Positions 1-64,000 of a stretch of 64,000 nt of DNA are shown in pieces; the first letter of the stretch is position 1; every line of letters starts with the position of its first letter. Below the pieces are notes generated by a model. It was not told where the DNA came from. It made no database searches and saw only the letters and a list, made by a program, of their open reading frames with translations. The translations under genes and the position numbers were made by a program. Location of the stretch: contig JAUCBJ010007036.1 of assembly GCA_032718475.1 (NCBI GenBank), positions 1 through 64,000 on the forward strand, in the 5' to 3' direction. This DNA comes from Nemertoderma westbladi. Taxonomy: Eukaryota > Animalia > Xenacoelomorpha.

Positions 1-820
1 AGGGTTTACTGTGAAAGATCACCCATGGTGGTGAACAGGCATTCCTTTAGGAAACAAAGTGGAAGGGTTTACTGTGGAAGATCACCCATGGTGGTGAACA
101 GGCTTTCCTTTAGGAAACAAAGTAGAAGGGTTTACTGTGGAAGATCACCTATGCTATGGTGGTGAACAGGCATTCCTTTAGGAAACAAAGTGGAAGGGTT
201 TACTGTGGAAGATCACCCATGGTGGTGAACAGGCATTCCTTTAGGAATCAGAGGGGAAGGGTTTACTGTGGTAGATCACCCATGGTGGTGAACAGGCATT
301 CCTTTAGGAATCATAGTGGAAGGGTTTACTGTGGAAGATCACCCATGGTGGTGAACAGGCATTCCTTTAGGAAACAGAGTGGAAGGGTTTACTGTGGAAG
401 ATCACCCATGGTGGTGAACAGGCATTCCTTTAGGAAACAAAGTAGAAGGGTTTACTGTGGAAGATCACCTATGCTATGGCGGTGAACAGGTATTCCTTTA
501 GGAATCAGAGGGGAAGGGTTTACTGTGGAAGATCACCCATGGTGGTGAACAGGCATTCCTTTAGGAAACAAAGTAGAAGGGTTTACTGTGGAAGATCACA
601 TATGCTATGGTGGTGAACAGGTATTCCTTTAGGAATCAGAGGGGAAGGGTTTACTGTGGAAGATCACCCATGGTGATGGACAGGCATTCCTTTAGGAAAC
701 AAAGTAGAAGGGTTTACTGTGGAAGATCACCTATGCTATGGTGGTGAACAGGTATTCCTTTAGGAATCAGAGGGGAAGGGTTTACTGTGGAAGATGACCC
801 ATGGTGATGGACAGGCATTG
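1..820. repeat. 63-bp minisatellite (68-bp variant), ~13 copies, runs off the window start
   Basis: Unit GGAAGGGTTTACTGTGGAAGATCACCCATGGTGGTGAACAGGCATTCCTTTAGGAAACAAAGT recurs at 192, 255, 318, 381; it explains the periodic 156..485 ORF. Confidence 0.97.
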
Positions 821-1458
821 CTTGGCTTAACGAGCCTAAAAGATTCTCCCATTCATTACCCTTATAATATTTATTTATTTTGCAATCTTGGCATTTAATT
901 ACTGCAAACTAAGTTATATGTCACGAAACTGAACACTGATTGTTAAATTCTTAATTTCATATTATAATGACAGCCTAATGTAAATACAACTAATAATATT
1001 GTGTAGTATATGTAAATATCTAAAAACATTGTAAACTTTGGAATTCCATGGCATTATTATACAGTTATAGCTTGTAGGGATAATATACTTTATTACTATA
1101 ATTGACCATATTTTGACACAAGGGGAATTAAATATTTCTGGTTCGTTTACTGAACATAAATGATACTACTACCATGTATGTCAGATTTCTGCCTACAATG
1201 CATATTGTATGTATCACAAATATAAGTTAGTAATTAAGGATTTATGGGGGTAGGCCTACTGCCAATGCATCCTATTGGAAACAACTTCATAGTTAACAAT
1301 TAATATTATTGGTCTGCTGTCTGCAATAACTTCAGACCCTCACGATGAGTATATTAATATCACTGAATCAATAACACGAGGATGTTTACAGGAATAATTC
1401 TGTCCCCCCAAACACTTCTTATAAACCTTTTCTGTATTTACACCAGTTCTATTATTGT

Positions 1459-1673
1459 CTAGGATATCTCCTTTTTGCAGGTGTGTAAGTCAACAGTTTC
1501 TTTGCACAGCACGCATCTTACTTTGCAGCACCAATGGAACTTGCAATGGCATTGAGTTTCTCTCTCCACCTGTCTGATATTGAATCCTCTCCCGCAGCAG
1601 AGATTGTCGCATTTATTTTTGTCGTCCGGGTCCGAAGTAGCGTTGCACGGTCGGTCGCCAGTTCCCAAAGTTC
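1459..1673 (-). CDS. wnt2: Wnt terminal coding exon
   Basis: AATAG acceptor; [10 protein letters not shown]...CDNLCCGRG...[22 protein letters not shown] to TAG. Confidence 0.96.
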
Positions 1674-4600
1674 CTATTGGTATAATAAATATATTTGGGT
1701 ATTATTTATTTAGTAATAAATGTACATATTAAATATATAATATACATGGTATACTATATCGATACAGTTACGAGCATAGGTTGTGGTATAAAAATTATCC
1801 TATCCGAAGGTTAAAGTTATATATGTTTACTTTTTTGTTGGCTTCTTAGACTACATTATTATAATTGTGGGGTCGAACATGTGACCACCAGGTTGGAGGT
1901 CTGGCGTGCTAACTATTCCAATAATAACAGCAGCTCACACCCGCATATAAATTTTATATCTGCAACTTCCAACTTGCAATGGCCGTGAAAATATTAAATC
2001 GCTCGTTTTTGTAAATTGTTATTTCTAAAATTGACTAACTCGGTGACATTTTTCAATTTTTGAATAATTTTGGGTGACTGTGAATTATTTAATTGAATTT
2101 ATTATTTAATACATTCATTAAAAATGAATACAAATTTTATTTAAATGTTTTAGATTGGCGACACTGTTTGACAATGATTACCTGTTTTACTGTCGGTAAA
2201 ACAATAATTTGGCGAGGATTCGAAATAAACGAGTTCAGTGTTTAAGTTTGCGCGATTGTTTTCTACCGGTCTCAATCTCTCTCCCGTCTGATCCATTTCC
2301 ACTCTCACCGCTCTGTCATATTTTTCCCTGAGCTGATCGCCAACCTGAAAATTAAATAAAAGTCAACTAAATTAATATGTGTAGCCTATAGTTACTGTAG
2401 TTACTATAGTTACTTATACTGTAGAGTAGTGGGCCAATTAATAACTCCAGTAGAGAATCAGGTAGGTCCACTCTGTCAAAAAAAATAATATAAAAAAAAT
2501 TGTTCTAACATATTGTAAACATTTTAGACTAGAATTGTGTCTATGTAGTTTCTGGAAATCTGTGTTGTGAAATTGCGAAACAATGCGTACATATGAGCCT
2601 TTGAAGCCAAAACGTTTGAAAAAAAAATATTGAAATTGCAAAACAAATATTGAGAATATAAAAATTATTGATATTACAGAAACGAGTTGGTGTTATAAGA
2701 ATAAAGCTATAAAAATTCTTCCCTTATAGAACACCAACTTTTTTTGGCAATCTCAATAATTTTTATAATCTCAATATGTTGTTTTGTAATCTCAATATAT
2801 ATTTTCTAACATTTTGGCTTCAACTGAGACTCATACATGCGTAACGTTTTTATCTGGAATTATTTTTATAGGCCAAATAACATGAAGCTATAATTTGAAA
2901 TCGTAAAAAATTAATGTTTTTTTTGTAAATGAAAATAATACTGAAGATTGTTTAGGCATATTGAATTACGGGCATAACAAACTTTAGAGTAGTAATAATA
3001 ACTTATAATAATAACAACAATCATGCTGCTCTGAAATTTATTTTGGATAAACTTTCAGTGTAAAGTTAACTAAAGTATCCAAATTGGGCGCCCTGGCAGG
3101 CCGGGCCTAGGAAGCATGCCACGCATCTATAGGCCTATCTATAAATCATAAACCAGAGAATAGTTAGTTTGAGTGAGTACCGGTATGTTAGCTGATGCGA
3201 GCCACATGCTGAGGTTTCACTACTATCCACTACTATGCTACATTTGGAAAAGTAAAATACAGTGTTAGTAATAGTTTACGGTTCAAACTCGAATTGTTTA
3301 GCCTTCCAAATATCTGCACTACTTACACTGCTTAGCATATTAGTTTGTTATTAGTTTGTTTTATAATTATTTATCAATCCTCAAACATATAAAATTCACA
3401 AATAGAAACAGGAACAGTCATTGAAACACAGATACGTGGCGAATAAACAATGGAAAACCTATACAATATCTAAACAAAGAAAAAAACATGAGTTCTACAT
3501 TATTATAGAAAAGGAAAGAAATCATGAAAATAAAAATAACATTCAAGAGATTAATATTTAACATCGACTGAGAGAGAAAACAAACACGTTATTTATTGGC
3601 ATTGTTATTCCTTAGAACAGTCGAAACCAACGTGTTGTGTGAAAAAACATCATCCGTGGCAAAATTTATTTAAAATCTGATTATTAATTTGTTTAAGAAA
3701 ATAAAAGGTGTAAATCGTAATGAGATTATTTTACAATTTTCAAAATTATCCACTAAATATTTCGAACATCAGTAATGTGGGAAAAGGGAAATTGTAAAAA
3801 AGGCGCGTTTGTTTAATCTGTTCTAACGAAAATGTAGTTTAGCAATTTAATTGAAAGTGTTATAATAATAATATACCGTTCTGAAATCGATCATTGACTC
3901 CCAACAGGTTTTTAGTTGACAGTTGGCGCTCGGACCGTGGCATTTACACTGAACTTTTGTCATTTTGCTCGTCGTCTATAGAGAGATTATGGTAAAGATA
4001 AAATTAATTCATTTGAAGCGGGTGATCGTCGCTATAAAAAGTATAATAATAGTAATATAAAATAAAAAGTAAAAAACCACGACTGCTATAATATCTACGT
4101 GAGATTGTTAAATATCGCGTCTTACTTGGGTGTATAGTAATTGTGGATATGATTACGAACTTAGGTGCCCTTAATGCGAATTCGTGTCCCCGACATGCGA
4201 AATTAGGTGTTGAAAATATTGGTGTTTTATCAATAAAATTTAGTGGGACATTCCATATGTAACATCGGTAAATTCATATATGCGAGACAATCTCTAGCAA
4301 AATTGCAATAACATTCACTAAATAAAATATTTTTGCGAGTGACCATATGACCTACTAAAACAGTAGGTCAGGTCGGATTGACTATCCAAGTTTGGTTTAA
4401 TTCCTCTAAGGGTGAGATGAGAACTATAATAATGAGTCCAATATACATTAAGAAGAAGAACACACACGATGCATGTTGTGATTCAATTCGTGCTGTTAGC
4501 TACACTGTATTACCTAAAAAGCTTCCTTAAATTAATTAATAGGTTACATCAGTAAACATGCAGGATCACAGTTTCTCGATGCATAACTTATCAAGAGCCT

Positions 4601-7600
4601 ATCGGCAATCTGACTCGCTTACTTTTTCAAACCTTGGCAGAGTTGTAAAACATGTATGAAAATCACAATTAGAACTCATACCATGACAACGACATACAGT
4701 ACGTTTGCTCTTTTTAACAACCTGAAAAATATAAAAACTGAAGAAGTTAAGCATATAAGATAGAAATCAAGGTCTTCGTTAGATTGGTCATTTTAAATAG
4801 GATTGGCACATAATTTGTATTAATTTAATATAGTCAATAAAAAGAAACGGCAGCTGCAATGCAATATATCAAAGCTCCCGCGCTATGGAGCACATACTTT
4901 CATTCAAAAATTGAATTACAATTTTATGACAAAACGGAGACAAGGCAGTCAGTCTCCTTACCTTTTTAATTTAAGTAGTTACTGTAGACGCCTGCTCCTG
5001 CTACAATATACTAATGCTACCATGCTACCACTACTGCACTGTATAATAAATGGGCAATTACTTGGGTACGGCTGCTGTGGGCGCGGGTCGGCTACCCTTT
5101 TTGCTGCCCAGTGGTATAAAAAAAACTCTGGTAGCATATTTGTAGTTTTGTTAGTTAAATTTTGAAGTTAAATTACAAGTAAGCAAATGCTACCCGCTTA
5201 CAACCAGAAGATGATTAGACGCAGTCCCTGACATATGTACTATCGGGTGATAGCTTTCACTATTGCCTCGCGTAGTAAAATATTATTATTAATAGTTGTT
5301 CTTCATATTAAATTATTTATAGATTTGTGTAACGTCCCGCTACCTATCTCATTTAATCGCCGGTAAACATTTAAAAAGTTAGGCATAAGATTTTATAGGC
5401 ATTGTATGATTGGTATACAGTATGTACTGTATATCTGATGTTGATGTTGTATTCATATTTAAAGTCCTCATTATTAGTCTGCCAAGTTGATAGGGATTAT
5501 AAGAAGGGAATGTATTCAACAGACCATTAAATTAACAGAACCAATACAAGTCAATGATAGTATATACAACCTGATAATTATACATTATCTCATATCTAAA
5601 TCTGAGTTTCTTTTTATAATAATAACAACATTAAAATAGTACATCGTCTGACATTTAAATCGCTAGAAAAGCTTTAATTTTACTAAATTTTGAATTCGCA
5701 TTTCTGGTTGTGCGTAAATCGGACAAGACGAGACAGAGCCGAGGGAGGGGGGAAACTTGACGCAAATGCCATCTCGGCGAATTAATATCTCGTACCAATG
5801 TTAAATCATCAATTAAGGGAAAGGATCAGGTTACAATATCATGGCATTATAACCAAAACAATAAATGAAAGTTAATAGTTTACAATTTTATTTTTGAGAG
5901 TTATCAGCTGTTATTTGAGTTGATTTTCCCCTAGAGAAGGATGAATTTTCATTGAACGAAAGTCCCCCCCCCCCAAATCTGTGTATAAGAAGATCCAAGC
6001 TCAAATATTGTGTATGAATTCAGTTTGATATATAATATTTTGTACAAAATACTCACCCTTCGCCCCGCTCTCGTGTTATGTAGGTTCATTAGGGCCCGAG
6101 GTGTGATTGTCTTCCTGTCCTTGGCATCGATCCATTGTCTCGCCTTATCGGCTCCGTATCGGATATTGTCGCTACATCCGCCCCACTTCGCGTTCTCCTC
6201 GTCGCTAATCCGGGCGTTCCGAGTTTCCGGTTCTTCCGAGTTGTCCACGCACGAGCAGCCCCGGATATTCCCTTTGCTGCATTCGCGAGTGATCGCGTTC
6301 ACTATGGCCGCTGACGTTATCGCGTAAATAAAAGAAACTTCGCGACTCGCTGAAAAGTTAATAATAAAGATTGTGTCGTGGGTTGTCGGGCATAAATCTG
6401 TTATATTCGAACGGGAAACCATGGCGACTAAAGTAACAGAATAATAACCTATCCAGGTCGATTAAAACACAATAATGTATTTTTATTTTACTTTGATTGT
6501 TCGTATTATTTCCCTATTTAGGTAACGGCATAAGAAACGGTATCACTATATAAATAAAAAAAATCCCCACTGAAATCTGCTCCTTTCCGTTACTCACGAA
6601 ACGAATAAGTTATGATAAACCAGAAAGCCAGAAAGAAAAATCAGTCAGAAATCCTCAGTTTGACACTGAGAGTTTATGTATTAGTTTTGTTGTCTGCCTG
6701 GAGGTGTGGTGGGGAGGTGGGGGGGGGGGGGGGGGGGATGTGATTTCCATAACGGGAGGCGTTTATCCTTTATAATTACGTAAAATATTCAACTCTAAAA
6801 TAACTTAAATTCACCGCAGTGTTTTTGCTTCCAAAACCAAATATAATTATCACGCGTTGCTTTCATTAAGGCACAGCAATAAGATTTCATTATCACTTTC
6901 TGTGAGAAACCCCAATAGTAGCGAATAGATAATACGATTACCCACCGGTAACGAGGATATAACACATTTAGTAACAGCTGCAAAGGTTTAATACGACCCG
7001 CAATTCCATGAAAAATATCTTTCGTGTCTCAAATGCTGAGAATCTTGATGGTAAATATGTTGAAATAATAAGTTATCCGTTTCCATGGTAACTAACCGAC
7101 TTGTAGTGCACTGCGGGGTTCCGTTCCCATAGTAACTAACCCACAATGAATGCCCCCAGGGGGTCCGTTCCCATAGTAACTAACCGACACTGAGTGCCCC
7201 GAGGGGGTCCGTTCCCATAGTAACTAACCGACACTGAGTGCCCCGAGGGGATCCGTTCCCATAGTAACTAACCGACACTGAGTGCCCCGAGGGGATCTGT
7301 TCCCATAGTAACTAACCGACACTGAGTGCCCCGTGGGGGTCCGTTCCCATAGTAACTAACCGACACTGAGTGCCCCGTGGGGGTCCGTTCCCATAGTAAC
7401 TAACCGACACTGAGTGCCCCGTGGGGGTCCGTTCCCATAGTGACTAACCGACACTGAGTGCCCCGTGGGGGTCCGTTCCCATAGTAACTAATCGACACTG
7501 AGTGCCCCGTGGGGGTCCGTTCCCATAGTGACTAACCGACACTGAGTGCCCCGTGGGGGTCCGTTCCCATAGTAACTAATCGACACTGAGTGCCCCGTGG

Positions 7601-10585
7601 GGGTCCGTTCCCATAGTAACTAATCGACACTGAGTGCCCCGTGGGGGTCCGTTCCCATAGTGACTAACCGACACTGAGTGCCCCGTGGGGGTCCGTTCCC
7701 ATAGTGACTAACCGACACTGAGTGCCCCAAGGGGGTCCGTTCCCATAGTAACTAACCGACACTGAGTGCCCCGTGGGGGTCCGTTCCCATAGTAACTAAC
7801 CGACACTAAGTGCCCCAAGGGGTTCCGTTCCCATAGTAACCAACCGACACTAAGTGCCCCAAGGGGTTCCGTTCCCATAGTAACTAACCGACACTGAGTG
7901 CTCCCAGGGGGTCCGTTCCCATAGTAACTAACCGACATTGAGTGCCCCAAGGGGGTCCGTTCCCATAGTAACTAACCGACACTGAGTGCCCCGTAGGGGT
8001 CCGTTCCCATAGTAACTAACCGACACTGAGTGCCCCGAGGGGGTCCGTTCCCATAGTAACTAACCGACATTGAGTGCCCCAAGGGGGTCCGTTCCCATAG
8101 TAACTAACCGACACTGAGTGCCCCGAGGGGGTCCGTTCCCATAGTAACTAACCGACATTGAGTGCCCCAAGGGGGTTCGTTCCCATAGTAACTAACCGAC
8201 ACTGAGTGCCCCGAGGGGGTCCGTTCCCATAGTAACTAACCGACACTGAGTGCCCCGAGGGGGTCCGTTCCCATAGTAACTAACCGACACTGAGTGCTCC
8301 CAGGGGGTCCGTTCCCATAGTAACTAACCGACACTGAGTGCCCCGTAGTGCACCGATGGATTCCTTTTCAACGCGGTGCAGTTGAACCTCTCCTTATCGA
8401 ACTGGTGTTCGCACTCATCGAACCCCAACCGCGTCCCGTAACAGATGGCCGTGACGAGATCCGAGTTGGACTTACAGAGTTTCCTCTGCTTCCTCGCGAG
8501 GTTAGAGGTTTTCTGGCAAATCATCTCCACCTGATCGCAGGGCAGGTCGTGGTGGCTCATGAAACTGAAAGTAAATAGGTCAACGAAATTTGTCAACAAT
8601 AACTTACCATAATTTATGTAGTAAAAGAAAAAGGGAATAAAGTTCATTATTTTACTGGTATTACTTTGTAGAATTACCTATATTTCCAATAGATAATTCA
8701 TATAATCTTATCCATTTCACTTAATACAACAACCATTTCTAACAAGTCGGAACCCACCTTCCCCCCCCCCCCCCTAACCCCCTCAGATTTTTTCAAAATT
8801 TTAATAGTATTCTACGAAATTTGGCATGATGATAGTTCGACAATATTTCTTTGATTTTTCGGATTTTTCAATTTCTGAGCTATTTCGATACAACAAGGCT
8901 TATATTTGGCGATATTTAGCCACCTCGGTCGGTTTTATTTTTTGTCTTTTGAATGTAATCTAGATATCATTTGAATTGAACCGCCTTCCTCTGTAGATTC
9001 CTAATCTGAAAAGTTGCCAAAATTATAATCATATCAAATTACTTCGCTAAAAATAAAATATTTACTCAATTCTCTAGAATACTAATCACGCGTAATGAAG
9101 GAACAAGATGGAGAGTTGTAAAAGGGCACGTGTGTGTCAATACATTGAACTAATAAGCTTATGTACCTCTTCTGAAGAATTGGTTCAACAGAATTGCTGT
9201 GGTATGCAATGTGGTATCAGAATAAATAAAAAAATTATTTTGATCACCAGAAATTTTCAAAGTGAAAAATATTATTTTTAAAAGTGAAAAATACAAGTAT
9301 TTTTGTCGATTTTTGTGATGTAACTTTTGAAATGCCGAACTGAAATTTAAGTAATGGAGGTTTTCCTGGTTGGTGAATACATGAAGCCCCGTTCACATCC
9401 AACGGTGCGTGAGCGGTAAAGCATTCTGGCGGTATTGAAGCGGTAAGCCAGCGGTACACTACCCGGAGCCCGTTCACACCCAACGGTACCGTTGCGGTAA
9501 CTGATTGTCTATCTGTCGACTGTGAATTCAACAGGAAATTACATTAATTGTTTTAACATTCTTTAAATAGGCTGCGGTAAACCGCGCGGTGAACAGCACA
9601 ACTACCTGTTGGGTCGTTCACAGTCAGCGGTGTACCGCTGGCCTTCTGTCTGTTGAAATGTAGGAAAGGATACGACCTCTCTAACATTTTAGTTAAAGGG
9701 GTTTCCTGGTCGGTGATTCCATATCTGATGTAGGTATTCCAATATAATGGCTTTGTGTTGGTCTGTATAAATGTCGGTCTGTCCGTCAAAATATAACAGA
9801 CAGACAGACAGCCGGATAGACCATCTAGGTAAAACAGACATCAGAAATTGAATCATAGTCCCGGAAAAGCCCTACAACATTTTAAGTTGTGTATTTATTC
9901 ATTATTTTTGACTGACAGAGAGGCCAACAGACAGACAGACAGGCAGACTGACTGACAGACAGACAGATAGACATGCAGGCAGGCAGAAAGGCAATCTAGA
10001 ATACATAAAACATTAAAACTGACATTAGAAATGTGATCACTAAACAGGAAAAATTCCATAGCAAAAATTACAATGCCTGTGTTCTTTATTTTTGTGAGAC
10101 TGAACGACTGACAAGTAGACAGACCACATCTATAACTCGACAAATAAAAGACATCTCGCTATGTCGTTTTCAGTTTTGAAATCGCCATTAAATGTTTATC
10201 CAGAATTAATAATAATTAGAAATAATCATTATTATTCTAGAATAAAGACAAAAAACATTAGAATTATAGCGATTTTCGTCTCAAAATTTACACCATAGCA
10301 TTTTGATATCTTTGGGGCAATTTTGTGAAATGTAAAACTGTTTTCAGCAGCATGCCGAAACGTGATATCAAGTTGAAACGTCCGTAAACAATAAACATTG
10401 AATCATTATAAAATATCAGAGAATAATCGACAGTTAACAAAAATGATTAAACCGCACACTGTAATACATATTATATCATCGATCAATAATAATTTGTATA
10501 ATACTTACAACCAATGCCCTTGAGCAGTTCCAATTGTTATATACAATATAGCAGACCATATAAACCACAGATTGCAAAACACCAT
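1459..10585 (-). CDS. wnt2: Wnt ligand gene, Wnt2-like; coding exons 10585-10509, 8564-8329, 6349-6057, [4721-4623 or 3975-3877], 2344-2182, 1673-1459; 360 aa
   Basis: All junctions are GT-AG and phase-compatible (1083 nt with one exon 4). Signal peptide plus [79 protein letters not shown]. The Wnt2 subfamily call is by recalled similarity and needs a phylogeny. Confidence 0.93.
2182..2344 (-). CDS. wnt2: Wnt coding exon 5
   Basis: TTTCAG|[21 protein letters not shown]...[18 protein letters not shown]|GTAATC. Confidence 0.93.
2591..2838. mobile_element. Fold-back MITE-like element in a Wnt intron
   Basis: Long imperfect palindrome: TATGAGCCTTTGAAGCCAAAA...TATTGAGAATATAAAAATTATTGA...AGTTGGTGTT mirrored by AACACCAACT...TCAATAATTTTTATAATCTCAATA...TTTTGGCTTCAACTGAGACTCATA. 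Confidence 0.75.
3877..3975 (-). CDS. wnt2: Wnt exon 4b (alternative copy of the lipidation hairpin exon)
   Basis: CTCTCTATAG|[33 protein letters not shown]|GTATAT; 99 nt, phase 0-0. Confidence 0.9.
4623..4721 (-). CDS. wnt2: Wnt exon 4a (alternative copy of the lipidation hairpin exon)
   Basis: ATTTTTCAG|[33 protein letters not shown]|GTAAGC; 99 nt, phase 0-0. Confidence 0.88.
6057..6349 (-). CDS. wnt2: Wnt coding exon 3
   Basis: TTTTCAG acceptor; [13 protein letters not shown]...[11 protein letters not shown]...[11 protein letters not shown]...LHNTRAGRR; GTGAGT donor, phase 0. Confidence 0.96.
7080..8345. repeat. 44-bp minisatellite, ~28 copies, unit spans the Wnt exon 2 donor site
   Basis: Minus-strand unit CGGGGCACTCAGTGTCG|GTTAGTTACTATGGGAACGGACCCCCW; the first copy is the real exon end. 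Confidence 0.97.
8329..8564 (-). CDS. wnt2: Wnt coding exon 2
   Basis: TTTCAG acceptor; FMSHHDLPC...[16 protein letters not shown]...[13 protein letters not shown]...HYGALSV; G|GTTAGT donor. Confidence 0.93.
9380..9640. mobile_element. Degenerate MITE fragments with PIF/Harbinger-like ends
   Basis: Three related (GC)CCGTTCACA..AACGGT starts at ~9385, 9468 and 9612, with GTGAA complements at ~9522 and 9588. Confidence 0.4.
10509..10585 (-). CDS. wnt2: Wnt coding exon 1 (signal peptide)
   Basis: [25 protein letters not shown] then TT|GTAAGT; phase 2 fits the next exon. A possible 5'UTR acceptor (TTTTCCAG) lies at 10648. Confidence 0.85.
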
Positions 10586-13009
10586 TTTGGAAATAAATAC
10601 GAAGCACTAAAAGTCATCCAATTGAAATGATATTGAGGAAAATCACCCTGGAAAATACTATTTTAATAAAATGAAGAAACACATGATGGCGTTGACAACT
10701 TAGATAATTACAACTAAGCAAAAAATCTAGAAATTTATTTTACAGTACACGCTAAAAGCTGCTGAGGGACGTAAAGGTGTTTAAAGTACGCAATTTTATT
10801 CAAAACTCGAAACATTACTTGATGACGGATCAGGTTTCTAATTAGAGAAGGAATTAATCAATAATGTAAAAAAGTGCCATGGAATAGAACTGTTGCCAAG
10901 GAAAGGATAAAATATTATTTATTCCAAAAAATTATTTATACTTTTATTACCTATTAATATAAAAGCTAATAGCAGGTGTTAATGTCCTTTGGCTTTGGAG
11001 TCAATGGAGTTCATTAACCTCGTAATTGAATTCATCCATTTGATGATATAGATTTCATTTCGGTTGGGTCCACTCTTTAATACAAATGCCTCTGGTGCAC
11101 TGGACCTGGACAAGGTAAGGTTATATGTTACCACTCCTATTGTGCTGCTGCTGCAAGCAATGCTGCGAAATTTCCCAGGGTTCTGAAAATAGTATGTCAC
11201 TATGCTGCTTTGGCGATGTGGCCGATGTTGATTATTTTGCATTGATTCACAAGAAGCTGCTGATCATGTTGTTAACGATTATCATGCATTTATCGCAAAT
11301 GGAGATTGCAATGACAGTCTACCTCAACGTCAGTGCATGTAATGAGCAGTGACTTGCAATGTGGCTAATCCATACCCAGTTCCAGTGAGGGGGATATGTT
11401 AGAAAGCTATTCACTCATGTTGGTGGGCCCAAGTGGCAACATATCCAAAATGCACCATATTATCTTTCGGAAGAAATACATATGTAGCAAAATAATATTG
11501 TCTACGATGTAAACTAGCAAACCTAAACCCCCAAAGAGAAAGAATATTCTTTGGGCAGATCAACTCATTATGCTTGCCGAGTAAGTAAGAAGTCTGTGTC
11601 TTCCGAGCTGTTTCAGACTCCTAGGCCTATATTCCTAATTCAAATATTTAACAATGATTAAAAGGCCAGGAGCCCAGTAATGCTAAAAATCTACTATCTG
11701 CTCGAAAGCGCGCTCCAATAGCCAAGGTCAAAGCTAAACGCCTTAACAGGTTCCACCTTAGGTCTCTAAGTTCGAGGAATTTAACGAACTTAACACACCG
11801 TACTCGTGGAAATGTATCAGAACACAGTCGTTACCAAAAGATTTTCGCATTGTACCGGTCCGGTAGAGCAGTAAAACATACAATAATTTGAAACTTCGTA
11901 GTCACGTAATGTTTCTAGTTTCCAATAATATAGCAATAGCGAATGTTAGAGTTACGAGTTTTTGGGATAATTAACCTACTTCTACGTAATTTATACATAG
12001 GGAATTAATTAACTCTCTGTTTGAAAATTTATTTAAGGATTTATTTTATATGGGGTCGTAAAGCATTAATTTAATTACATTTAAGCGTTTATGTCAAACT
12101 TTTTAATTGATTTGAACATAAATAATAGAAATAAAATGTGATGTTATTATAAAAATAAATACCATTTGAAACTTGAGTCACGTTAATTAAACCACACTTC
12201 TATAATTAGCGTAGATATAAACATTGTTTTCCTGCAAAATCACGTTTAGTAAATGAAAGGAATTCGGCGCCCCTATTGGTGAATCACAAACAGGGGTAAA
12301 CCGTGATTGGCTATCGGTAAACATGAATGGGAAATTCAGTATGGCAATCCCAAATCGCAGGGCCTCTAGCAGAGGGCTTATTGCGTCAATAGGACCAACG
12401 GAATATCAATGACAGCCTAAATTGCTGAGTAATTGATCAAGTAGGCGAGCTGGTGAGCTATTGTCTATTGTGGAGTGTTTCAAAAGGATGGGGATTATCT
12501 TTATAAAAACACCGAAATTGAACTCCAACCTGGTCCATAATGAACCAGCAAAGCCTTTTCGTATGAGGCCAAGGGAATTAATAGGAGGAGGTGACCTTTG
12601 TGGACGAAGACCTTTAATATTACCTAACATGCAGTATATAGCATATACTATTACAGTGAGTAGGCGTTTTATAAGCCTAATGTTTCGTGTCGACAAACCA
12701 ATCTGGCATGCGAAGAACAATAACAAGCACGTACGAACACAAAACACTCCAATACGAATGGCTAAACGTGAAATAATTAGGTCTGCCTATTCTGGAGTGC
12801 GTATGTATGTACGTTGTCAATTATATTACGCCCGTTCACTTCAGTTGTTAATAATCAAACCTTCATATTTTTAAAGAATAAACGATTTCACACTGGCGGG
12901 AATATCAATTCCCGCTACCGCTATTGCTATACTATTTACATGCAGTCAAATGCACTGTGTTTTTAGTGACTTCTATTAAAACATTATTTTTTGCCGGATC
13001 TAATTGCAT

Positions 13010-16000
13010 CTTCGTTTTAGATCACTAAGATCAGTAAGACCTCTCAACATGCAGCTTTGTTTTAGGTCACATGAAATTGCAACGTTAATTTAGGTCACAT
13101 TTACTTGCAATTTTGTTTTAGGTCACGTCTACTTGCAACTTTGTTTTAGGTGACATGCACTTGCAATTTTGTTTTAGATCACTTCACATGCAGCTTTGTT
13201 TTAGGTCACATGAAATTGCAACGTTAATTTAGGTCACATTTACTTGCAATTTTGTTTTAGATCACATCTACTTGCAACGTTGTTTTAGGTCACATGCACT
13301 TGCAATTTTGTTGTAGATCACTTCACATGCAGCTTTGTTTTAGGTCACATGAAATTGCAACGTTAATTTAGGTCACATTTACTTGCAATTTTGTTTTAGG
13401 TCACGTCTACTTGCAACGTTGTTTTAGGTGACATGCACTTGCAATTTTGTTTTAGATCACTTCACATGCAGCTTTGTTTTAGGTCACATGAAATTGCAAC
13501 GTTAATTTAGGTCACATTTACTTGCAATATTGTTTTAGGTCACGTCTACTTGCAACGTTGTTTTAGGTGACATGCACTTGCAATTTTGTTTTAGATCACT
13601 TCACATGCAGCTTTGTTTTAGGTCACATGAAATTGCAACGTTAATTTAGGTCACATTTACTTGCAATTTTGTTTTAGGTCACGTCTACTTGCAACGTTGT
13701 TTTAGGTGACATGCACTTGCAATTTTGTTTTAGATCACTTCACATGCAGCTTTGTTTTAGGTCACATGAAATTGCAACGTTAATTTAGGTCACATTTACT
13801 TGCAATATTGTTTTAGGTCACGTCTACTTGCAACGTTGTTTTAGGTGACATGCACTTGCAATTTTGTTTTAGATCACTTCACATGCAGCTTTGTTTTAGG
13901 TCACATGAAATTGCAACGTTAATTTAGGTCACATTTACTTGCAATTTTGTTTTAGGTCACGTCTACTTGCAACGTTGTTTTAGGTGACATGCACTTGCAA
14001 TTTTGTTTTAGATCACTTCACATGCAGCTTTGTTTTAGGTCACATGAAATTGCAACGTTAATTTAGGTCACATTTACTTGCAATATTGTTTTAGGTTACA
14101 TCTACTTGCAAAGTTGTTTTAGGTGACATGCACTTGCAACTTTGTTTTAGATCACCTCACATGCAGCTTTGTTTTAGGTCACATGAAATTGCATCGTTAA
14201 TTTAGGTCACATTTACTTGCAACCTTGTTTCAGATAACTTCACATGCAGCTTTGTTTTAGGTCACATTTACTTGCATCCTTGTTTCATTTAACTTCACAT
14301 GCAGCTTTGTTTTAGATCACATCTACTTGCAACGTTGTTGTAGGTCACATCACACGCAGCTTTGTTTTAGGTCACGTTTACTTGCATCCTTGTTTCATTT
14401 AACTTCACATGCAGCTTTGTTTTAGATCACATCTACTTGCAACGTTGTTTTAGGTCACATCACATGCAGCTTTGTTTTAGGTCACATTTACTTGCAACCT
14501 TGTTTCCGATAACTTCACATGCAGCTTTGTTTTAGATCACATCTACTTGCAACGTTGTTTTAGGTCACATCACATGCAGCTTTGTTTTAGGTCACATTTA
14601 CTTGCATCCTTGTTTCATTTAACTTCACATGCAGCTTTGTTTTAGATCACATCTACTTGCAACTTTGTTTTAGATCACATCACATGCAGCTTTGTTTTAG
14701 ATCACATCACGGGCAGTTTGTTTCAGATAACTTCACACGCAGCTTTGTTTTAGATCACATCTACATGCAACTTTGTTTTAGATCACTTCATATGCAGCTT
14801 TGTTTTAGAGATCACATCTAGGCAGCTTTGTTTTAGATCACATCACATGCAACGTTGTTTTAGGTGACATGCACTTGCAACTTTGTTTTAGATAACTTCA
14901 CAGGCAGCTTTGTTCTAGGTCACATGCACTATTGCAACTTTGTTTTAAATCACAAATCACAGGCAGTTTTGTTTATGTCACATCTACTTGTAAGTTGCAA
15001 CTTTATTTTATGACACATCTTCACGCAGCTTTGTTTTAGGTGACATCTCTGCTTGCAACATTGTTTTAGGTGATATGCACTTGCAACTTTGTTTTAGATC
15101 ACTACACATGCAGCTTTTGTTTTATGTCACATGTACTTGCAACTTTGTTTTAGATCACATCACATGCAGCTTTGTTTTAGATCACACATCACGGGCAGTT
15201 TGTTTCAGATAACTTCACATGCAGCTTTGTTTTAGATCACATCTACTTGAAACGTTGTTTTAGGTCACAGGCACTTGCAACATTGTTTTAGATCACATCA
15301 CAGACAACTTTGTTTTAGGTCACGTCTACTTGCAACGTTGTTTTAGGTCACATGCACTTGCAACTTTGTTTTAGATCACTTCACATGTAGCTTTGATTTA
15401 GGTCACATTAAATTTCAACTTTGTTTTAGATCACATCACAGACATCGTTGTTTTAGGTCACGTCTACTTGCAACGTTGTTTTAAATCACAGGCAGCTTTG
15501 TTTTAGGTCACATCTACTTATAAGTTGCAACTTTATTTTATGTCACATCTTCATGCAGCTTTGTTTTAGGTCACATCTCTGCTTGCAACGTTGTTTTAGG
15601 TGATATGCACATTGCAGCTTTGTTTTAGGTCACGTCTACTTGCAACGTTGTTTTAGGTCACATGCAGTTGCAACTTTGTTTTAGATCACATCACAGACAT
15701 CGTTGTTTTAGGTCACGTCTACTTGCAACGTTGTTTTAAATCACAGGCAGCTTTGTTTTAGGTCACATCTACTTATAAGTTGCAACTTTATTTTATGTCA
15801 CATCTTCATGCAGCTTTGTTTTAGGTCACATCTCTGCTTGCAACGTTGTTTTAGGTGATATGCACATTGCAGCTTTGTTTTAGGTCACGTCTACTTGCAA
15901 CGTTGTTTTAGGTCACATGCACTTGCAACTTTGTTTTAGATCACTTCACATGTAGCTTTGATTTAGGTCACATGCACTTGTAACTTTGTTTTAGATCACA

Positions 16001-17170
16001 TCACATGCAGCTTTGTTCTAGGTCACATGCACTTGCAACTTTGTTTTAAATCACAGGCAGCTTTGTTTTAGGTCACATCTACTTATAAGTTGCAACTTTA
16101 TTTTATGTCACATCTTCATGCAGCTTTGTTTTAGGTCACATCTCTGCTTGCAACGTTGTTTTAGGTGATATGCACATTGCAGCTTTGTTTTAGGTCACGT
16201 CTACTTGCAACGTTGTTTTAGGTCACATGCAGTTGCAACTTTGTTTTAGATCACATCACAGACATCGTTGTTTTAGGTCACATCTACTTGCAACGTTGTT
16301 TTAGGTTACATGCACTGGCAGCTTTGTTTTATATCACATCACATGCAGCTTTGTTTTAGGTCACATGCACTTGCAACTTTGTTTTAGATGACATCACATG
16401 CAGCTTTGTTCTAGGTCACATGCACTTGCAACTTTGTTTTAAATGACAGGCAGCTTTGTTTTAAGTAACATCTACTTGTAAGTTGCAAATTTATTTTATG
16501 TCACATCTTCATGCAGCTTTGTTTTAGGTCACATCTCTGCTTGCAACGTTGTTTTAGGTGATATGCACATTGTAGCGTTGGTTTAGGTCACATCTACTTG
16601 ATTTTAGGTCACACGCACTTGCAACTGTGTTTTAGATCGCATGCACTTTCATCTTTGTTTTAGAACACTTGGGTCACATGCAGCTTTGTTTTAGCTCACA
16701 TGCTCTGGCAAATTTGTTTTAGATTACATCACAGACAGCTTTGTTTTAGATCACTTCACATGCAGCTTTGTTTTAGGTCACATGAAATTGCAACTGTGTT
16801 GTAGATCACTTCACATGCAGCTTTGTTTTTGGTCACATGAAATAATTGCAACTGTGTTTTAGATCACATCACAGGCAGCTTTGTTTTAGGTGCTACTTTA
16901 GGTTCTACTTGCAAATGTATTTTATGTCACATCTTCTCGCAGCTTAATTTTAGGTCACATATTCATGCAGCTTCGTTTTATGTCACGTGAAATTGTTACT
17001 TTTTTGGATCACATCACAGGCAGCTCTGTTTTAGATCAGTTTTATCTAATCTGTTTTATCTGCTTGCAACGTTTTTAGGTTACATCCACCTGCAACTTTG
17101 TTTTGGATTATATCTACATGCAGCTTCGTTTAAGGTCAAATAAATTGTAACGTTTTTGGATCACATCGTT
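13010..17170. repeat. Satellite with a ~28-bp monomer and higher-order repeats
   Basis: Monomer ~CAACTTTGTTTTAGGTCACATGCACTTG. A 5-monomer, 139-bp HOR starts at 13052, 13191, 13330...; other HORs follow and the array decays after ~16550. Confidence 0.97.
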
Positions 17171-17299
17171 AATTAGCGATTTAATGATTTTGTACCAAAT
17201 CTGACATACTAGACATTTCAAACATCAGATGGTTTTTCTATTAAAAATGAAATATTTTAAGTCACAAACATTTTTGCTTTGATTTTGGTCATACATGTA

Positions 17300-17740
17300 G
17301 GGGTCGTCCATAAAGCACGTGCGAGGTAAGAGTGTCGGAGGTGGGTTTTCGAAATCCGGGTCTCTTCGGACAGGGGGAGGGAGTGGGGTTGTGGCTAAAA
17401 TAGGAGGTCCGATGTTTCTATAATTATTAATTTATCACTGTAACAAACGGGCTACCAGATTTACAATACAATACCAGTAGAGTCCGAATAAAGTACATAA
17501 CTTGGCCAGTTTGCTCACATTAGGTATTGGTTGGGAGCAGATCTTATTCATTATATCACAATATCGTTAATGCTAGACTACTGTTAGTACCGGGAGGATC
17601 ACCAAAAAGATAAACAGGCTACCGCTACTTCAAATAGTTTGAGATTTTAGGAAGATGGAGGAAAACGCAAAGGTTTGGCAAAAACCGGACTTGTTTGGAT
17701 GGACAGGGGGGGGGGGGGGGGGGGGTCCTTTATGGTTGAG
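17300..17740. mobile_element. Degenerate PIF/Harbinger-like MITE
   Basis: Left end GGGGTCGTCCATAAAGCACGT, decayed right end GTCCTTTATGG; internal GGACAGGGGG duplicated. Confidence 0.5.
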
Positions 17741-18359
17741 ATTTATACAAAGATAAAATTGTTATACAAAAGAGCATTCGGGGACCTTTAAACAGAAACA
17801 TCCGGTGTGTAATCATGTAAACAGATCGTTAAACGAGATAGAAACAATCAGAGATTGAAAGTATCGAAAAATATGATATACAAATTTAATATGACGGCGT
17901 TTGTATAATTAGACAATAGGAATGTTAACAACTCATCACCAATTCACGGATTAAATAATGTATTAATGTATATAGTAAGTAATTTTATTAATTTACACAT
18001 AGCTTCTTACAAATATTAAATATTACAAGCTATTATATTACAAAATATTAAATAAATATTACAATATTACACTCCATTAAAGATGAACAGAAGTTGCTGA
18101 GAAAAAAAGCATTTTTAAAAAAGCGTGACCAAGATATTGTGATGTAACATGACCTGCTATATTTAGTAACAATATATTACAACTATACTACTATATATAC
18201 TAATAAAATAATAGTGGTTTTAGTCAAGATAGAAACAGGTATAACAAAAAAACATTACAGTAGAAAATAAAATCAAATTCGCCACCACAAAAACTAACTA
18301 AGGTTCACATGTAATACAATATTATTATATTGCCCTTAGATAATAAGGCAGCGATATAA

Positions 18360-20170
18360 ATACTGGTAAACTGTCCTCAATAAATAACCCATTGGTACAA
18401 CTAATGATATACTGTCCACAGTAAATAACCCATCGGTACAACTAATGGTATACTATCCTATGTAAATAACCCAGTGGTACAACTAATGGTATACTGTCCT
18501 CTGTAGATAACCCAGTGGTACAACTAATGGTATACTATCCACAGTAGATAACCCAGTGGTACAACTAATGGTATACTGTCCTCTGTAAATAACCCAGTGG
18601 TACAACTAATGGTATATTGTTATCAGTTAATGACCCCGTTGTACCACTAATGGTATACTGTCCTCAGTAAATAACCCAGTGGTACAACTAATGGTATACT
18701 GTCCACAGTAAATAACCCAGTGGTACACCAAATGGTATATTATCCGCATTAAATGACACAATGGTACAACTAATGGTATACTATCCTCATTAAATGACAC
18801 TGTGGTACAACTAATGGTATACTGTCCACAGTAAATAACCCAGTGGTACAACTAATGGTATACTGTCCTCTGTAGATAACCCAGTGGTACAACTAATGGT
18901 ATACTGTCCTCAGTAAATAACCCAGTGGTACAACTTATGGTATACTGTCCTCAGTAAATAACCCAGTGGTACAACTAAAGGTATACTGTCCTCAGTAAAT
19001 AACCCAGTGGTACAACTAAAGGTATACTGTCCTCTGCAGATAACCCAGTGGTACAACTAAAGATATACTGTCCTCTGCAGATAACCCAGTGGTATAACTA
19101 ATGGTATACTGTCCTCCGTAAATAACCCAGTGGTACAACTAAAGGTATACTGTCCTCTGCAGATAACCCAGTGGTGCAACTAATGGTATACTGTCATATA
19201 CCTCTTTAAATACTGGTACAACTAAAGGTATACTGTCCTCTGCAGATAACCCAGTGGTGTAACTAATGGTATACTGTCCTCCGTAAATAACCCAGTGGTA
19301 CAACTAAAGGTATACTGTCCTCTGCAGATAACCCAGTGGTGCAACTAATGGTATACTGTCATATACCTCATTAAATGACAACGTGGTACAACTAATGGTA
19401 TACTGTCCACAGTAAATAACCCAGTGGTACAACTAATGGTATACTGTCCTAGGTAAATAACACAGTGGTACAACTAATGGTATACCGTCCTCAGTAAATA
19501 ACCCAGTGGTACAACTAATGGTATACTGTCCTCTGTAAATATCCCAGTGGTACAACTAATGGTATACTGTCCGAGGTAAATAACACAGTGGTACAACTAA
19601 TGGTATACCGTCCTCAGTAAATAACCCAGTGGTATAACTAATGGTATACTATCCTCATTAAATGACACCGTGGTACAACTAATGGTATACTGTCCACAGT
19701 AAATAACCCAGTGGTACAACTAATGGTATACTATCCTCATTAAATGACACCGTGGTACAACTAATGGTATACTGTCCACAGTAAATAACCCAGTGGTACA
19801 ACTAATGGTATACTGTCCTCTGTAGATAACCCATTGGTACAACTAATGGTATACTGTCCTCTGTAGATAACCCATTGGTACAACTAATGGTATACCGCCC
19901 TCAGTAAATAACCCAGTGGTACAACTAATGGTATACTATCCTCATTAAATGACACCGTGGTACAACTAATGGTATACTGTCCACAGTAAATAACCCATTG
20001 GTACAACTAATGGTATACTGTCCTCTGTAGATAACCCATTGGTACAACTAATGGTATACCGCCCTCAGTAAATAACCCAGTGGTACAACTAATGGTATAC
20101 TATCCTCATTAAATGACACCGTGGTACAACTAATGGTATACTGTTATCAGTCAATGACCCCGTTGTACCA
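18360..20170. repeat. 41-bp minisatellite, ~44 copies, downstream of the PI3K stop codon
   Basis: Unit CAGTGGTACAACTAATGGTATACTGTCCTCAGTAAATAACC. Confidence 0.97.
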
Positions 20171-20686
20171 CACCACAACTGATATTGCATCTTGTAGCCT
20201 CTATGTACACCAGGTCGCAGACAAATTTCAATAAGATCATTTACATAAAAAAAAACAATATAAAAAGAACGTTATATCTGTTAATTTAATTGCATTATTA
20301 AACGTATTGTTTGTGGCTGCGGGTAAAGGTATGGGCAGTTTCCATTTAATAAATATTTATATTTACTTTATTCTAGAAAAATACAAAATGCATTTTGAAC
20401 TGCAAAAAATGTCAAAGGCGGATAAACAAAGAACAAAAACATTCCATTCCAACGATCTTCGTCATTCAACATTTGTGCGGGTTTTATCATAAATAGATAA
20501 AAAAAACCGGAACCGAGTGCATGGATAACTCCGTAACTAGAATAAGCCTAAACTGAAACAAACAATTAAAACTGGCATATTTGCTATTGTACATAGTTTT
20601 AAGTCTACAGCACCTTATAGTAGAAACATTCGTGAACTGATCATTATAGCACATCGCTGATTATTAATTAGGCCGCCACGTGGTTA

Positions 20687-49551
<28,865 letters not shown>

Positions 49552-53100: not shown

Positions 53101-53366
53101 AGACGAATCGAAAGTTCTGGCCTCGTGTGGATATTCAACGGTGGGTTAAAACTAGGCCTACTATTGTGTCTCAAATTTTAAGAAATATGAGAAATATTTG
53201 TGGAAAAATATGGAGGAAAAATATCCGTTTCATAAGCATGATAAAATTACACTATATTACCGGTCACGTTGACTGTAATAGTAATAGGCCTATAGAAGAT
53301 TTATAATGTAGTTAATTATAAACAAATCAACAAAGGAATTCGTTTCACATTATAGGCCGGGGAATT

Positions 53367-63110: not shown

Positions 63111-63520
63111 ATTCACTTTATACTTAGTTTAAAATAGTCTCATTACATAGTTTATTGCTTTCGTCAAATCCATACATAAACACCGTCTCAGTCAGTGTTG
63201 GCTTGTATATCATTACGTAGTGTAACATAGTACAATCAGACAGTAGCCGAGTACACCTAGCTACATCAAGAGCTGCCAGTAGTATCATAAATTCTACCAA
63301 GTACAGACGTACTGCTGCCCGGTGCAGTGCTTAAGCAGACCTCTCTCGTGGCGTCCAGCTACCCTAGCCTTAAAATAAAACTGTGAGTCCCTGTTGTCTG
63401 CCCACTACTAGTCCAGCATGTTTACAATACAAATACACCCTGGTGTAGGCTTACTACTCCCTTGGTTCGCTTGTTTGGTTGTCCAGTGATTATTTCGTAT
63501 TTTGCTACCGACGGAAAACA

Positions 63521-64000
63521 ATGCCTAAACGTCACTGTCCATTCACAACCTCCAGTCCTCAACTGAAAGTTAACGTTGGCGTTAAAGAAATTAACGCAGG
63601 GGTTGATTGTGTGGAACGAATGAAAAAAGTTTACGAAAGGACACAGAATCTACTAGCAATGGGTTCGGCTATTGCGTTTACGAGTGCAACAGCGGCCTCA
63701 CCAGTATGTACTTGTAATGATCAAGATCATCGCGAAACTGCAGAAGCGTCCAACGGACAGGCTACTATCACTGAAGCAATGGGTCTGCATAAACCCGCGA
63801 ACAATAATGTCGGCATCAATAGACCGTGTTGCAGCAACCAACAAGCAAACACCCAACATCTATGTTACTACTGCTCAAGTGTTCTTTGTAGCCATTGCGA
63901 TTATGTTTGTGCTATCTGTTCCCGTTATTGCTGTTCAAATTGTTCAGTCACTAATTATGACAACTCCGACAATCAACAGATTTGCTTAGATTGCGCTTAG
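63521..64000 (+). CDS. siva1: Apoptosis regulatory protein Siva, 159 aa, intronless CDS
   Basis: MPKRHCPF...PQLKVNVG.KEIN.GV......KKVYERTQNLL..G matches the SIVA N-terminus (MPKRSCPF..QLKV..V.EKT..LL); C-terminal Cys-rich zinc fingers (C..C...LC..C...C..C...C..C...CLDC); TAG at the window end. Confidence 0.9.
   Translation: MPKRHCPFTTSSPQLKVNVGVKEINAGVDCVERMKKVYERTQNLLAMGSAIAFTSATAASPVCTCNDQDHRETAEASNGQATITEAMGLHKPANNNVGINRPCCSNQQANTQHLCYYCSSVLCSHCDYVCAICSRYCCSNCSVTNYDNSDNQQICLDCA

What the first reader, a model, noticed from the sequence alone, without database searches (positions are those of the whole stretch)
7080..8345. Second donor-seeded array: ~28 copies of the Wnt exon 2/intron junction
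Seen: the 44-bp unit is ~17 exonic nt (GALSV codons) plus GTTAGT and further intronic sequence. It starts inside the exon, extends into the intron and decays at the distal end (~7080-7160). Downstream donors meet an in-frame GGT TAG stop. The unit is unrelated in sequence to the PI3K 20-mer but has the same geometry in a different gene.
Basis: seen in the sequence. Interest (0 to 1): 0.7.

Follow-up and report, generated by a model that had tools for sequence, protein, structure and literature searches.

The report
Splice-donor minisatellite in a Wnt intron
The end of one exon of an animal Wnt gene, together with its splice signal, is repeated 29 times head to tail into the next intron; the cell likely uses only the first signal, and repeats of this kind are already known from human and lancelet genes.

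Summary
Real, but a known kind. A 44-bp minisatellite (28.9 copies, 94% match) begins in the second coding exon of a Wnt2-like gene. It repeats the donor G|GTTAGT at 29 sites, 26 with GT. Protein homology puts the true donor at the first site, in an old Wnt intron. All 28 later sites read into a stop at codon 80. One exon-shaped contig has the length expected from first-donor use; the junction itself was not seen. One refinement: about 33 of the 44 bases look exon-derived, likely by a 54-bp duplication between imperfect 10-bp repeats and then a 10-bp loss. Three of 15 donors in the window sit in arrays (P 0.004; 0.23 given the two already flagged). Closest known: human F7/CBS/6-16 repeats and amphioxus 'mirages'. 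This scan noted the type before on other DNA: 13 findings, at least 9 genomes. More interesting in passing: two intact alternative copies of the exon for the Wnt lipid-bearing hairpin.

The parts
7076..8345 (-). 44-bp minisatellite, 29 donor-like sites (first one authentic; 25 further GT, 3 AT)
8329..8564 (-). Wnt coding exon 2 (236 nt, phase 2 in, phase 1 out); last 17-20 nt are the start of the array
   Evidence: X4 contig begins matching at 8564
8323..8328 (-). authentic donor G|GTTAGT (inferred from homology; the same hexamer follows 2 PI3K exons in the window)
8362..8371 (-). exonic copy of the imperfect 10-bp direct repeat that bounds the inferred 54-bp founder duplication
   Evidence: 8/10 match to 7076-7085; 34 of 125,144 positions elsewhere reach this
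8336..8355 (-). two adjacent 10-mers in the exon, 8/10 alike; likely site of the 54 to 44 bp contraction
   Evidence: sequence; best one-deletion alignment is 10 nt for both consensus and unit 29
7086..7129 (-). distal boundary unit 29, 35/44 to consensus, 20/27 to the exon 10 nt out of register
7076..7085 (-). intronic copy of the imperfect 10-bp repeat; end of the array
6350..7075 (-). non-array remainder of intron 2, ending in the acceptor
6057..6349 (-). Wnt coding exon 3 (starts with split codon then SREV)
10509..10585 (-). predicted Wnt coding exon 1 (signal-peptide-like, phase-2 donor GTAAGT)
   Evidence: only candidate in the scan of 8700-20650; in frame
4623..4721 (-). Wnt exon 4a (99 nt), one of two copies of the same segment
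3877..3975 (-). Wnt exon 4b (99 nt), second copy
2182..2344 (-). Wnt exon 5
1459..1673 (-). Wnt last coding exon with stop
26402..32402 (-). comparison: PI3K 20-bp donor array, about 300 copies, donor 32392
35813..35882 (-). comparison: small worn 18-bp repeat starting at PI3K donor 35877

Best explanation
A 44-bp minisatellite starts in the last 17-20 bases of coding exon 2 of a Wnt gene and repeats the splice donor at 29 sites; it likely arose on the spot by slippage, is likely tolerated rather than useful, and the first donor is likely the only productive one. Shown: array anatomy, Wnt exon identity and frame, and an in-frame stop behind the first donor. Inferred step 1: mispairing between two imperfect 10-bp repeats (exon 8371-8362 and intron 7085-7076) duplicated 54 bp, made of 43 exonic and 11 intronic bases. 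Inferred step 2: a 10-bp loss between two adjacent look-alike 10-mers gave the 44-bp unit. Inferred step 3: unequal exchange amplified and homogenised it, with the exon's last 17 nt taking part and the distal boundary unit left out. Inferred step 4: splicing picks the most upstream donor, as shown for human F7. Any transcript from a later donor carries TAG at codon 80 and would be non-productive, probably removed by nonsense-mediated decay. A donor array can grow into the intron without touching the reading frame, which explains why it survives.
For: Anatomy. Donor position: linker of 17 residues against 16-18 in 33 of 39 homologue matches; human WNT7A alignments leave 11 residues where the first donor gives 12; the full frame is open. 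Old intron: 140 of 146 Wnt database fragments with the RWNC-like motif do not run on into the SRE motif, and many show G-K/G-E read-through there. Origin: the first 19 nt of the unit match the exon 10 nt out of register at 13/19, the best place in the exon, with 3 of 125,126 positions elsewhere as good. Unit 29 matches there at 20/27, with 0 of 125,110 elsewhere reaching 19. At 4 of 10 sites where consensus and exon differ, unit 29 has the exon base (P about 0.001), and a 10-nt deletion is the best of 0-30 tested for both sequences. Homogenisation: 0/17 differences in register against 6/16 in the older part (Fisher P 0.007, boundary chosen after looking); neighbouring units differ less (2.0 nt) than units 7-12 apart (about 3.0). 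Splicing hint: a 1,972-nt contig of run X4 matches 8564-8344 at record 356-576 with 2 differences, starting exactly at the acceptor. First donor plus one exon 4 predicts its end at 848, 26 nt past an AATAAA-type hexamer; five of the six other models tried give 2 or 109-153 nt. Precedent: PMC1557585 (abstract and passages), PMC3087553 (passages), short flanking repeats as minisatellite seeds in PMC6947457 (passage citing Haber and Louis 1998).
Against: The exon 2-exon 3 junction was not seen in any read or contig. X4 is on record only as a guessed DNA run, so its being spliced RNA is my inference, and a processed copy is possible. Its match stops at 8344, 15 nt short of the donor, for a reason I could not see because the loose-end table was cut. 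A model with exon 2 shorter by 15 nt gives 41 nt past the hexamer, also not absurd, and contig ends are not transcript ends. In sample S2 (X2, X3) a synonymous change at 8342 lies in the exon-bearing contig of X3 but in only 20 of 149 (X2) and 22 of 75 (X3) of summed depth, and none of the 28 array units in the window has that base, so exchange with the exon is slow or past. For the consensus alone the 10-nt deletion (27/33) barely beats 9 or 5 nt (26/33). In human 6-16 and CBS, two pseudo-donors are used besides the true one, so leakage here is plausible. Neutrality was not tested.
Confidence: 0.8

Rival explanations
1. Splicing rheostat: the 25 extra GT sites divert part of the pre-mRNA into stop-carrying products, so copy number tunes the Wnt dose.
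For: 25 near-identical donors; all lead to a stop at codon 80; in 6-16 and CBS the two nearest pseudo-donors are used, and a CBS VNTR is linked to lower activity in a cited title.
Against: The stop is simple intron read-through. Three copies have lost GT and one its +4 A, so there is no sign that donors are being kept. F7 pseudo-sites do not compete with the first donor, and mirages do not disturb splicing. No RNA or DNA structure beyond shuffles (z -0.47 to +1.52). The X4 contig length fits first-donor use.
Confidence: 0.07
2. Donor-biased repeat birth: in this animal 5' splice sites are favoured places for minisatellites to arise or survive, and this array is one case of a genome-wide bias.
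For: 3 of 15 donors in the two genes lie in the first unit of a TRF array (8328, 32392, 35877); 0.34 expected, P 0.004. One acceptor (33081) is abutted by a 27-bp repeat. Amphioxus is described as rich in such repeats.
Against: One window, chosen because of these arrays: P is 0.03 given the Wnt array and 0.23 given both flagged arrays. 7 of 11 arrays in the two genes are 42 nt or more from any junction, including the 2.5-kb 36-mer. Of the 6 arrays over 500 bp in the window, only 2 touch a mapped donor. No genome was available. This rival is compatible with the best explanation; it adds a bias.
Confidence: 0.25
3. Intron gain by tandem duplication (Rogers model): the intron itself was made by the repeat.
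For: Proposed for mirages in PMC3087553; the array fills 1,253 of 1,979 intron bases.
Against: 726 non-array bases and a normal pyrimidine-rich acceptor follow. 140 of 146 Wnt fragments from other genomes break off at this same place, so the intron is old.
Confidence: 0.02
4. Assembly artefact: the array is a collapsed or over-extended repeat.
For: No contig spans the array; copy number rests on the window alone.
Against: Units carry ordered variants in local blocks. Contigs of three runs from two samples cover the unit with summed depth 3-28 times that of the exon next to it. That shows a repeat is present but is not a copy number, and X1 may be the source of the window.
Confidence: 0.03

Closest known systems
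Human F7 intron 7 37-bp VNTR, with 6-16 (25 pseudo-sites), CBS intron 13, lamin B2 and PDGF listed beside it; Borensztajn et al. 2006, PMC1557585 (abstract and 11 passages read)
   Same: First unit spans the exon-intron boundary; the donor is repeated down the intron; copy numbers of 5-25 are in the same range as 29; F7, lamin B2 and PDGF use only the first donor.
   Different: Invertebrate Wnt2-like gene. The F7 unit holds 4 exonic nt, here 17-20 in register and about 33 by ancestry. Length polymorphism and donor use are measured there, not here.
Amphioxus 'mirage' minisatellites (Adh3, globins BflGb6 and BflGb9, troponin C, PGBD5); PMC3087553 (7 passages; supplements not read) and PMC3902484 (1 passage)
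   Same: Tandem copies of an exon-intron boundary, unit 10-160 bp, several per gene or genome, concerted evolution inside the cluster with the boundary unit left out, no reported effect on mRNA.
   Different: The host here is an unidentified long-branch invertebrate (best Wnt hit 46%, best NOX hit 47%). That paper calls the mechanism of origin unclear; here a two-step origin can be read from the distal unit.
Minisatellite birth between short flanking repeats (Haber and Louis 1998, seen only as cited in PMC6947457, passage)
   Same: A 10-bp imperfect direct repeat bounds the inferred founder segment, and the array ends in that repeat.
   Different: The repeats are 54 bp apart, not 44, so a second 10-bp loss has to be inferred.

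Membership tests
Donor-repeating minisatellite / 'mirage' | Head-to-tail array with a unit of about 10-160 bp | tested here: met
   44 bp x 28.9, 94%
Donor-repeating minisatellite / 'mirage' | First unit spans a real exon-intron boundary | tested here: met
   By homology, frame and phase; junction not seen in RNA
Donor-repeating minisatellite / 'mirage' | Most copies keep the splice signal inside the intron | tested here: met
   25 of 28 downstream sites keep GT
Donor-repeating minisatellite / 'mirage' | Normal mRNA uses the first donor (or mostly so) | tested here: inconclusive
   Length of one exon-shaped contig fits; its match stops 15 nt short of the donor
Donor-repeating minisatellite / 'mirage' | Length differs between alleles or cells | not testable with these tools
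   Short-word contigs do not span the array; depth is no copy number
Donor-repeating minisatellite / 'mirage' | Inner units homogenised, boundary unit left out | tested here: met
   Units 2-28 are 40-44/44, unit 29 is 35/44; local blocks of variants
Minisatellite born between short direct repeats | 5-10 bp repeat flanks the founder segment and ends the array | tested here: met
   8/10 match at 54-bp spacing; 34 of 125,144 positions elsewhere; needs a later 10-bp loss
Intron gained by tandem duplication | Intron absent from homologues and made of the repeat up to its acceptor | tested here: not met
   726 non-array nt; 140 of 146 homologous fragments break at this place
Wnt2 subfamily (host gene) | Groups with Wnt2 proteins in a tree | tested here: inconclusive
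   Best hit onychophoran WNT2; sister to Wnt2-named rows at support 74 on a long branch, quick tree of 32 rows lacking most subfamilies

The most novel reading that the evidence does not exclude
In this animal splice donors are hot spots for minisatellite birth (3 of 15 in this window). The arrays keep exchanging sequence with the exon end they grew from, so an intronic repeat pulls the last five codons of a Wnt exon into concerted evolution, and its length sets how much mRNA leaks to stop-carrying donors.
Probability: 0.1. Interest if true: 0.55.

Novelty: new member of a known kind. Interest (0 to 1): 0.17.

Why it matters
As it stands it is one more example of a repeat class described in human and amphioxus genes, and noted many times by this scan. 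Its small added value is a readable history (a 54-bp founder shortened to 44 bp, preserved in the boundary unit) and a natural test bed of 25 competing identical donors outside mammals. It would matter more if the donor bias held genome-wide, or if allele length changed Wnt mRNA level. The twin exon 4 of the same gene is probably the better lead.

Tried and rejected
No whole genome is held, so there was no genome-wide count. No RNA holder was listed for the Wnt stretch; this blank is not used as evidence. X4 has no cover over the intron bases next to exon 2; this is not used as evidence. Contigs on exon 3 and the exons after it could not be read, so the exon 2-3 joint, the use of exon 4a or 4b, and the distal edge of the array in other samples remain open. 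No close orthologue was found: best identity was 53% for exon 3 among 39 hits and 54% for exon 2 among the best 150 of 739, so orthologous introns could not be compared. The NOX search gave at most 47% and did not place the animal. Folding of three RNA and three DNA pieces showed nothing beyond shuffles, so hairpin-driven slippage and structural masking of donors were dropped. The distal site 7096 as an ancestral donor was rejected: it has the wrong phase for exon 3 and loses the Y/F-G motif. A cryptic exonic donor A|GTGTCG was rejected as a poor consensus, untested. A founder duplication of 44 bp in register was disfavoured (6/14 against 13/19). Earlier notes held nothing for this genome or for look-alike DNA. 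PMC12783039 (passages) is about intronic repeats, not donor arrays. PMC306954 is not held, so 6-16 is known only through. The careful tree did not finish; the quick tree was used, leaving out three fused proteins and those under 280 aa. In one search the last exon was started 3 nt too early; this was corrected.

Full report
What is there. Tandem Repeats Finder gives a 44-bp array at 7076-8345 with 28.9 copies, 94% matches and no indels. On the minus strand it begins in the last bases of an exon and runs into the intron. A donor-like site recurs every 44 bases from 8328 to 7096: 25 read GTTAGT, one GTTGGT, three ATTAGT. Units 2-28 match the consensus at 40-44 of 44 bases; unit 29 matches at 35. 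A 14-nt motif of the unit occurs 28 times in the window, all inside the array (0.16 expected).

The gene. The flanking exons are Wnt: Pfam wnt profile 2-53 for 8563-8330 and 62-151 for 6347-6057. A scan of 8700-20650 found one candidate first coding exon, 10585-10509, hydrophobic with a phase-2 GTAAGT donor. Exons 1, 2, 3, either exon 4, 5 and 6 give 360 residues with no internal stop. The best hit is onychophoran WNT2 at about 45%. A quick tree of 32 proteins puts the gene next to Wnt2-named rows with weak support (74) on a long branch, so I call it Wnt2-like. The animal was not placed; its intronless NOX gene is at most 47% identical to anything listed.

Which donor is real. With the first site, the stretch between the conserved NC and SRE motifs is 17 residues; 33 of 39 homologue matches have 16-18. 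Alignments to human WNT7A leave 11 residues where the first donor gives 12. The same GTTAGT hexamer follows two PI3K exons in the window. Every later site retains the first donor's own GGT TAG, so all 28 give a stop at codon 80; this is ordinary read-through, not something the array adds. The intron is old: of 150 database proteins, 146 have the RWNC-like motif, 140 of these do not continue into SRE, and many read G-K or G-E there, as donor read-through would. I take these to be single-exon gene calls; that is an inference.

RNA evidence is indirect. Four runs were laid on 8290-9300. Run X4, on record only as guessed DNA, has a 1,972-nt contig that matches 8564-8344 at record positions 356-576 with two differences, beginning exactly at the predicted acceptor. 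I read it as spliced RNA; a processed copy is not excluded. If it uses the first donor and one exon 4, its end falls at 848, 26 nt past the AATAAA-type hexamer at 879. The other models give 2 (second donor), 153, 109, 142 (both exons 4), 125 (no exon 4) or 41 nt (exon 2 shorter by 15 nt). That is a fit, not a proof: the match stops 15 nt before the donor for a reason the cut table did not show, contig ends are not transcript ends, and the exon 2-3 joint was not seen.

How it arose. But the supposedly intronic part resembles the exon 10 bases further upstream. The first 19 bases of the unit match there at 13/19, the best place in the exon, and 3 of 125,126 positions elsewhere in the window do as well. 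The first 27 bases of unit 29 match at 20/27, with none of 125,110 positions reaching 19, and they read WERNPAVHY against the exon's LKRNPSVHY. At 4 of the 10 sites where consensus and exon differ, unit 29 has the exon base (P about 0.001), and a 10-base deletion is the best of 0-30 for both sequences, clearly for unit 29 (24 against 20) and barely for the consensus (27 against 26). The array ends in a 10-mer (7085-7076) that matches exon 8371-8362 at 8/10, and the exon holds two adjacent 10-mers that are 8/10 alike (8355-8336). The simplest history, inferred, is a 54-bp duplication between the first pair, a 10-bp loss between the second pair, then amplification. Short flanking repeats as seeds are the Haber and Louis model (seen as cited in PMC6947457). 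Folding showed no unusual structure.

Exchange with the exon. The exon's last 17 bases equal the consensus, while the older exon-derived part differs at 6 of 16 (Fisher P 0.007, boundary chosen after looking), which suggests the exon end took part in homogenisation. Against fast exchange: sample S2 has a synonymous change at 8342 in the exon-bearing contig of X3, but most summed depth there keeps the window's base (20 of 149 in X2, 22 of 75 in X3), and no array unit in the window has it. Summed depth over the unit is 3-28 times the exon's in X1-X3, which shows that a repeat exists in a second sample but is not a copy number.

Is there a pattern? The PI3K gene upstream has a 20-bp array of about 300 copies at donor 32392 (10 exonic + 10 intronic bases). 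It also has a worn 18-bp repeat at donor 35877 and a 27-bp repeat against acceptor 33081, which the finding did not mention. Of 11 arrays in the two genes, 3 cover one of 15 donors, with 0.34 expected: P 0.004 raw, 0.03 given the Wnt array, 0.23 given both flagged arrays. Seven lie 42 nt or more from any junction. PI3K exons upstream of 36040 were not mapped. No genome was available, so this is a hint from one selected window.

What is known. PMC1557585 (abstract and passages) describes minisatellites whose first unit spans a donor in human F7, 6-16 (25 pseudo-sites), CBS, lamin B2 and PDGF. F7 uses only the most upstream site by a scanning-type choice, while 6-16 and CBS also use two pseudo-sites. 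PMC3087553 (passages) and PMC3902484 (passage) describe amphioxus 'mirages', with homogenised inner units, excluded boundary units and normal splicing; I took that lead from earlier notes of this scan and checked it in the papers. Their supplements, which hold unit alignments, were not read and may already show origins like the one inferred here. The scan lists 13 findings with these words in at least 9 genomes (unchecked notes, not support). Searches for a published genome-wide excess at junctions returned nothing relevant (listings, and passages of the one paper), in a library that lacks most subscription journals.

Verdict. Observation confirmed, interpretation supported, class already known. 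It works like, and meets the structural tests of, a donor-repeating minisatellite; first-donor use is likely but not shown, and allele length variation is untested. Interest 0.17. The same gene carries two intact 99-nt exons for one segment of the Wnt fold, which deserves its own follow-up.

Noticed in passing
window 4623-4721 and 3877-3975 (minus): The Wnt gene has two 99-nt exons for the same segment (Pfam wnt 151-187 and 154-185). Both are AG..GT, phase 0/0 and open, 11/33 residues and 42/99 nt identical. They cover the C-[KR]-C-H-G hairpin that carries the lipid-modified serine (role recalled): [10 protein letters not shown] against [10 protein letters not shown]. 4b scores higher against homologues in all but 2 of 33 segments (means 89.6 and 80.4). 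The X4 contig length fits use of one copy only. Candidate mutually exclusive exons in a Wnt ligand; two literature searches (listings only) and earlier notes showed no such case. Probably more interesting than the array.
   Followed up: partly
window 35813-35882 (minus): A third donor-seeded repeat: a worn 18-bp unit, about 4-5 copies, starting at PI3K donor 35877, which also reads G|GTTAGT.
   Followed up: partly
window 33081-33202 (minus): A 27-bp repeat, about 5 worn copies of a pyrimidine tract plus TAG-like end, abutting PI3K acceptor 33081: an acceptor-side counterpart.
   Followed up: partly
window 26343-32402 (minus): The PI3K 20-mer fills all but about 60 nt of its intron, and each unit ends in a sequence 12/14 like the intron's real acceptor, so every unit holds both YAG and GT. 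It is a better candidate than the Wnt array for intron origin by duplication.
   Followed up: no
window 1-823, 13047-16995, 18364-20168, 21209-23669: Four other long minisatellites (63, 28, 41, 36 bp) do not touch a mapped junction; the six long arrays together cover about a quarter of the window.
   Followed up: partly
window 8750-9043: A 294-bp segment is absent from sample S2 (X2, X3 contigs join 8749 to 9044 with 13 other letters); it lies in a high-depth dispersed repeat, so it is probably a polymorphic insertion in Wnt intron 1.
   Followed up: no
window 53361-55046 (plus): NADPH oxidase gene encoded in one open frame of 561 aa with no intron; possibly a retrocopy or intron loss.
   Followed up: no
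window 38628-40493 (minus), with partial copies near 58566-59640: Reverse-transcriptase element (RVT_1 plus weak DUF6451); the second copy is interleaved with a 94-bp repeat.
   Followed up: no
window 63449-63997 (plus): Siva-family open frame.
   Followed up: no
window about 10648 (minus): An acceptor-like site lies about 62 nt upstream of the predicted Wnt start codon, and the X4 contig has 355 nt ahead of exon 2 against 77 coding, so a further non-coding first exon is possible.
   Followed up: no
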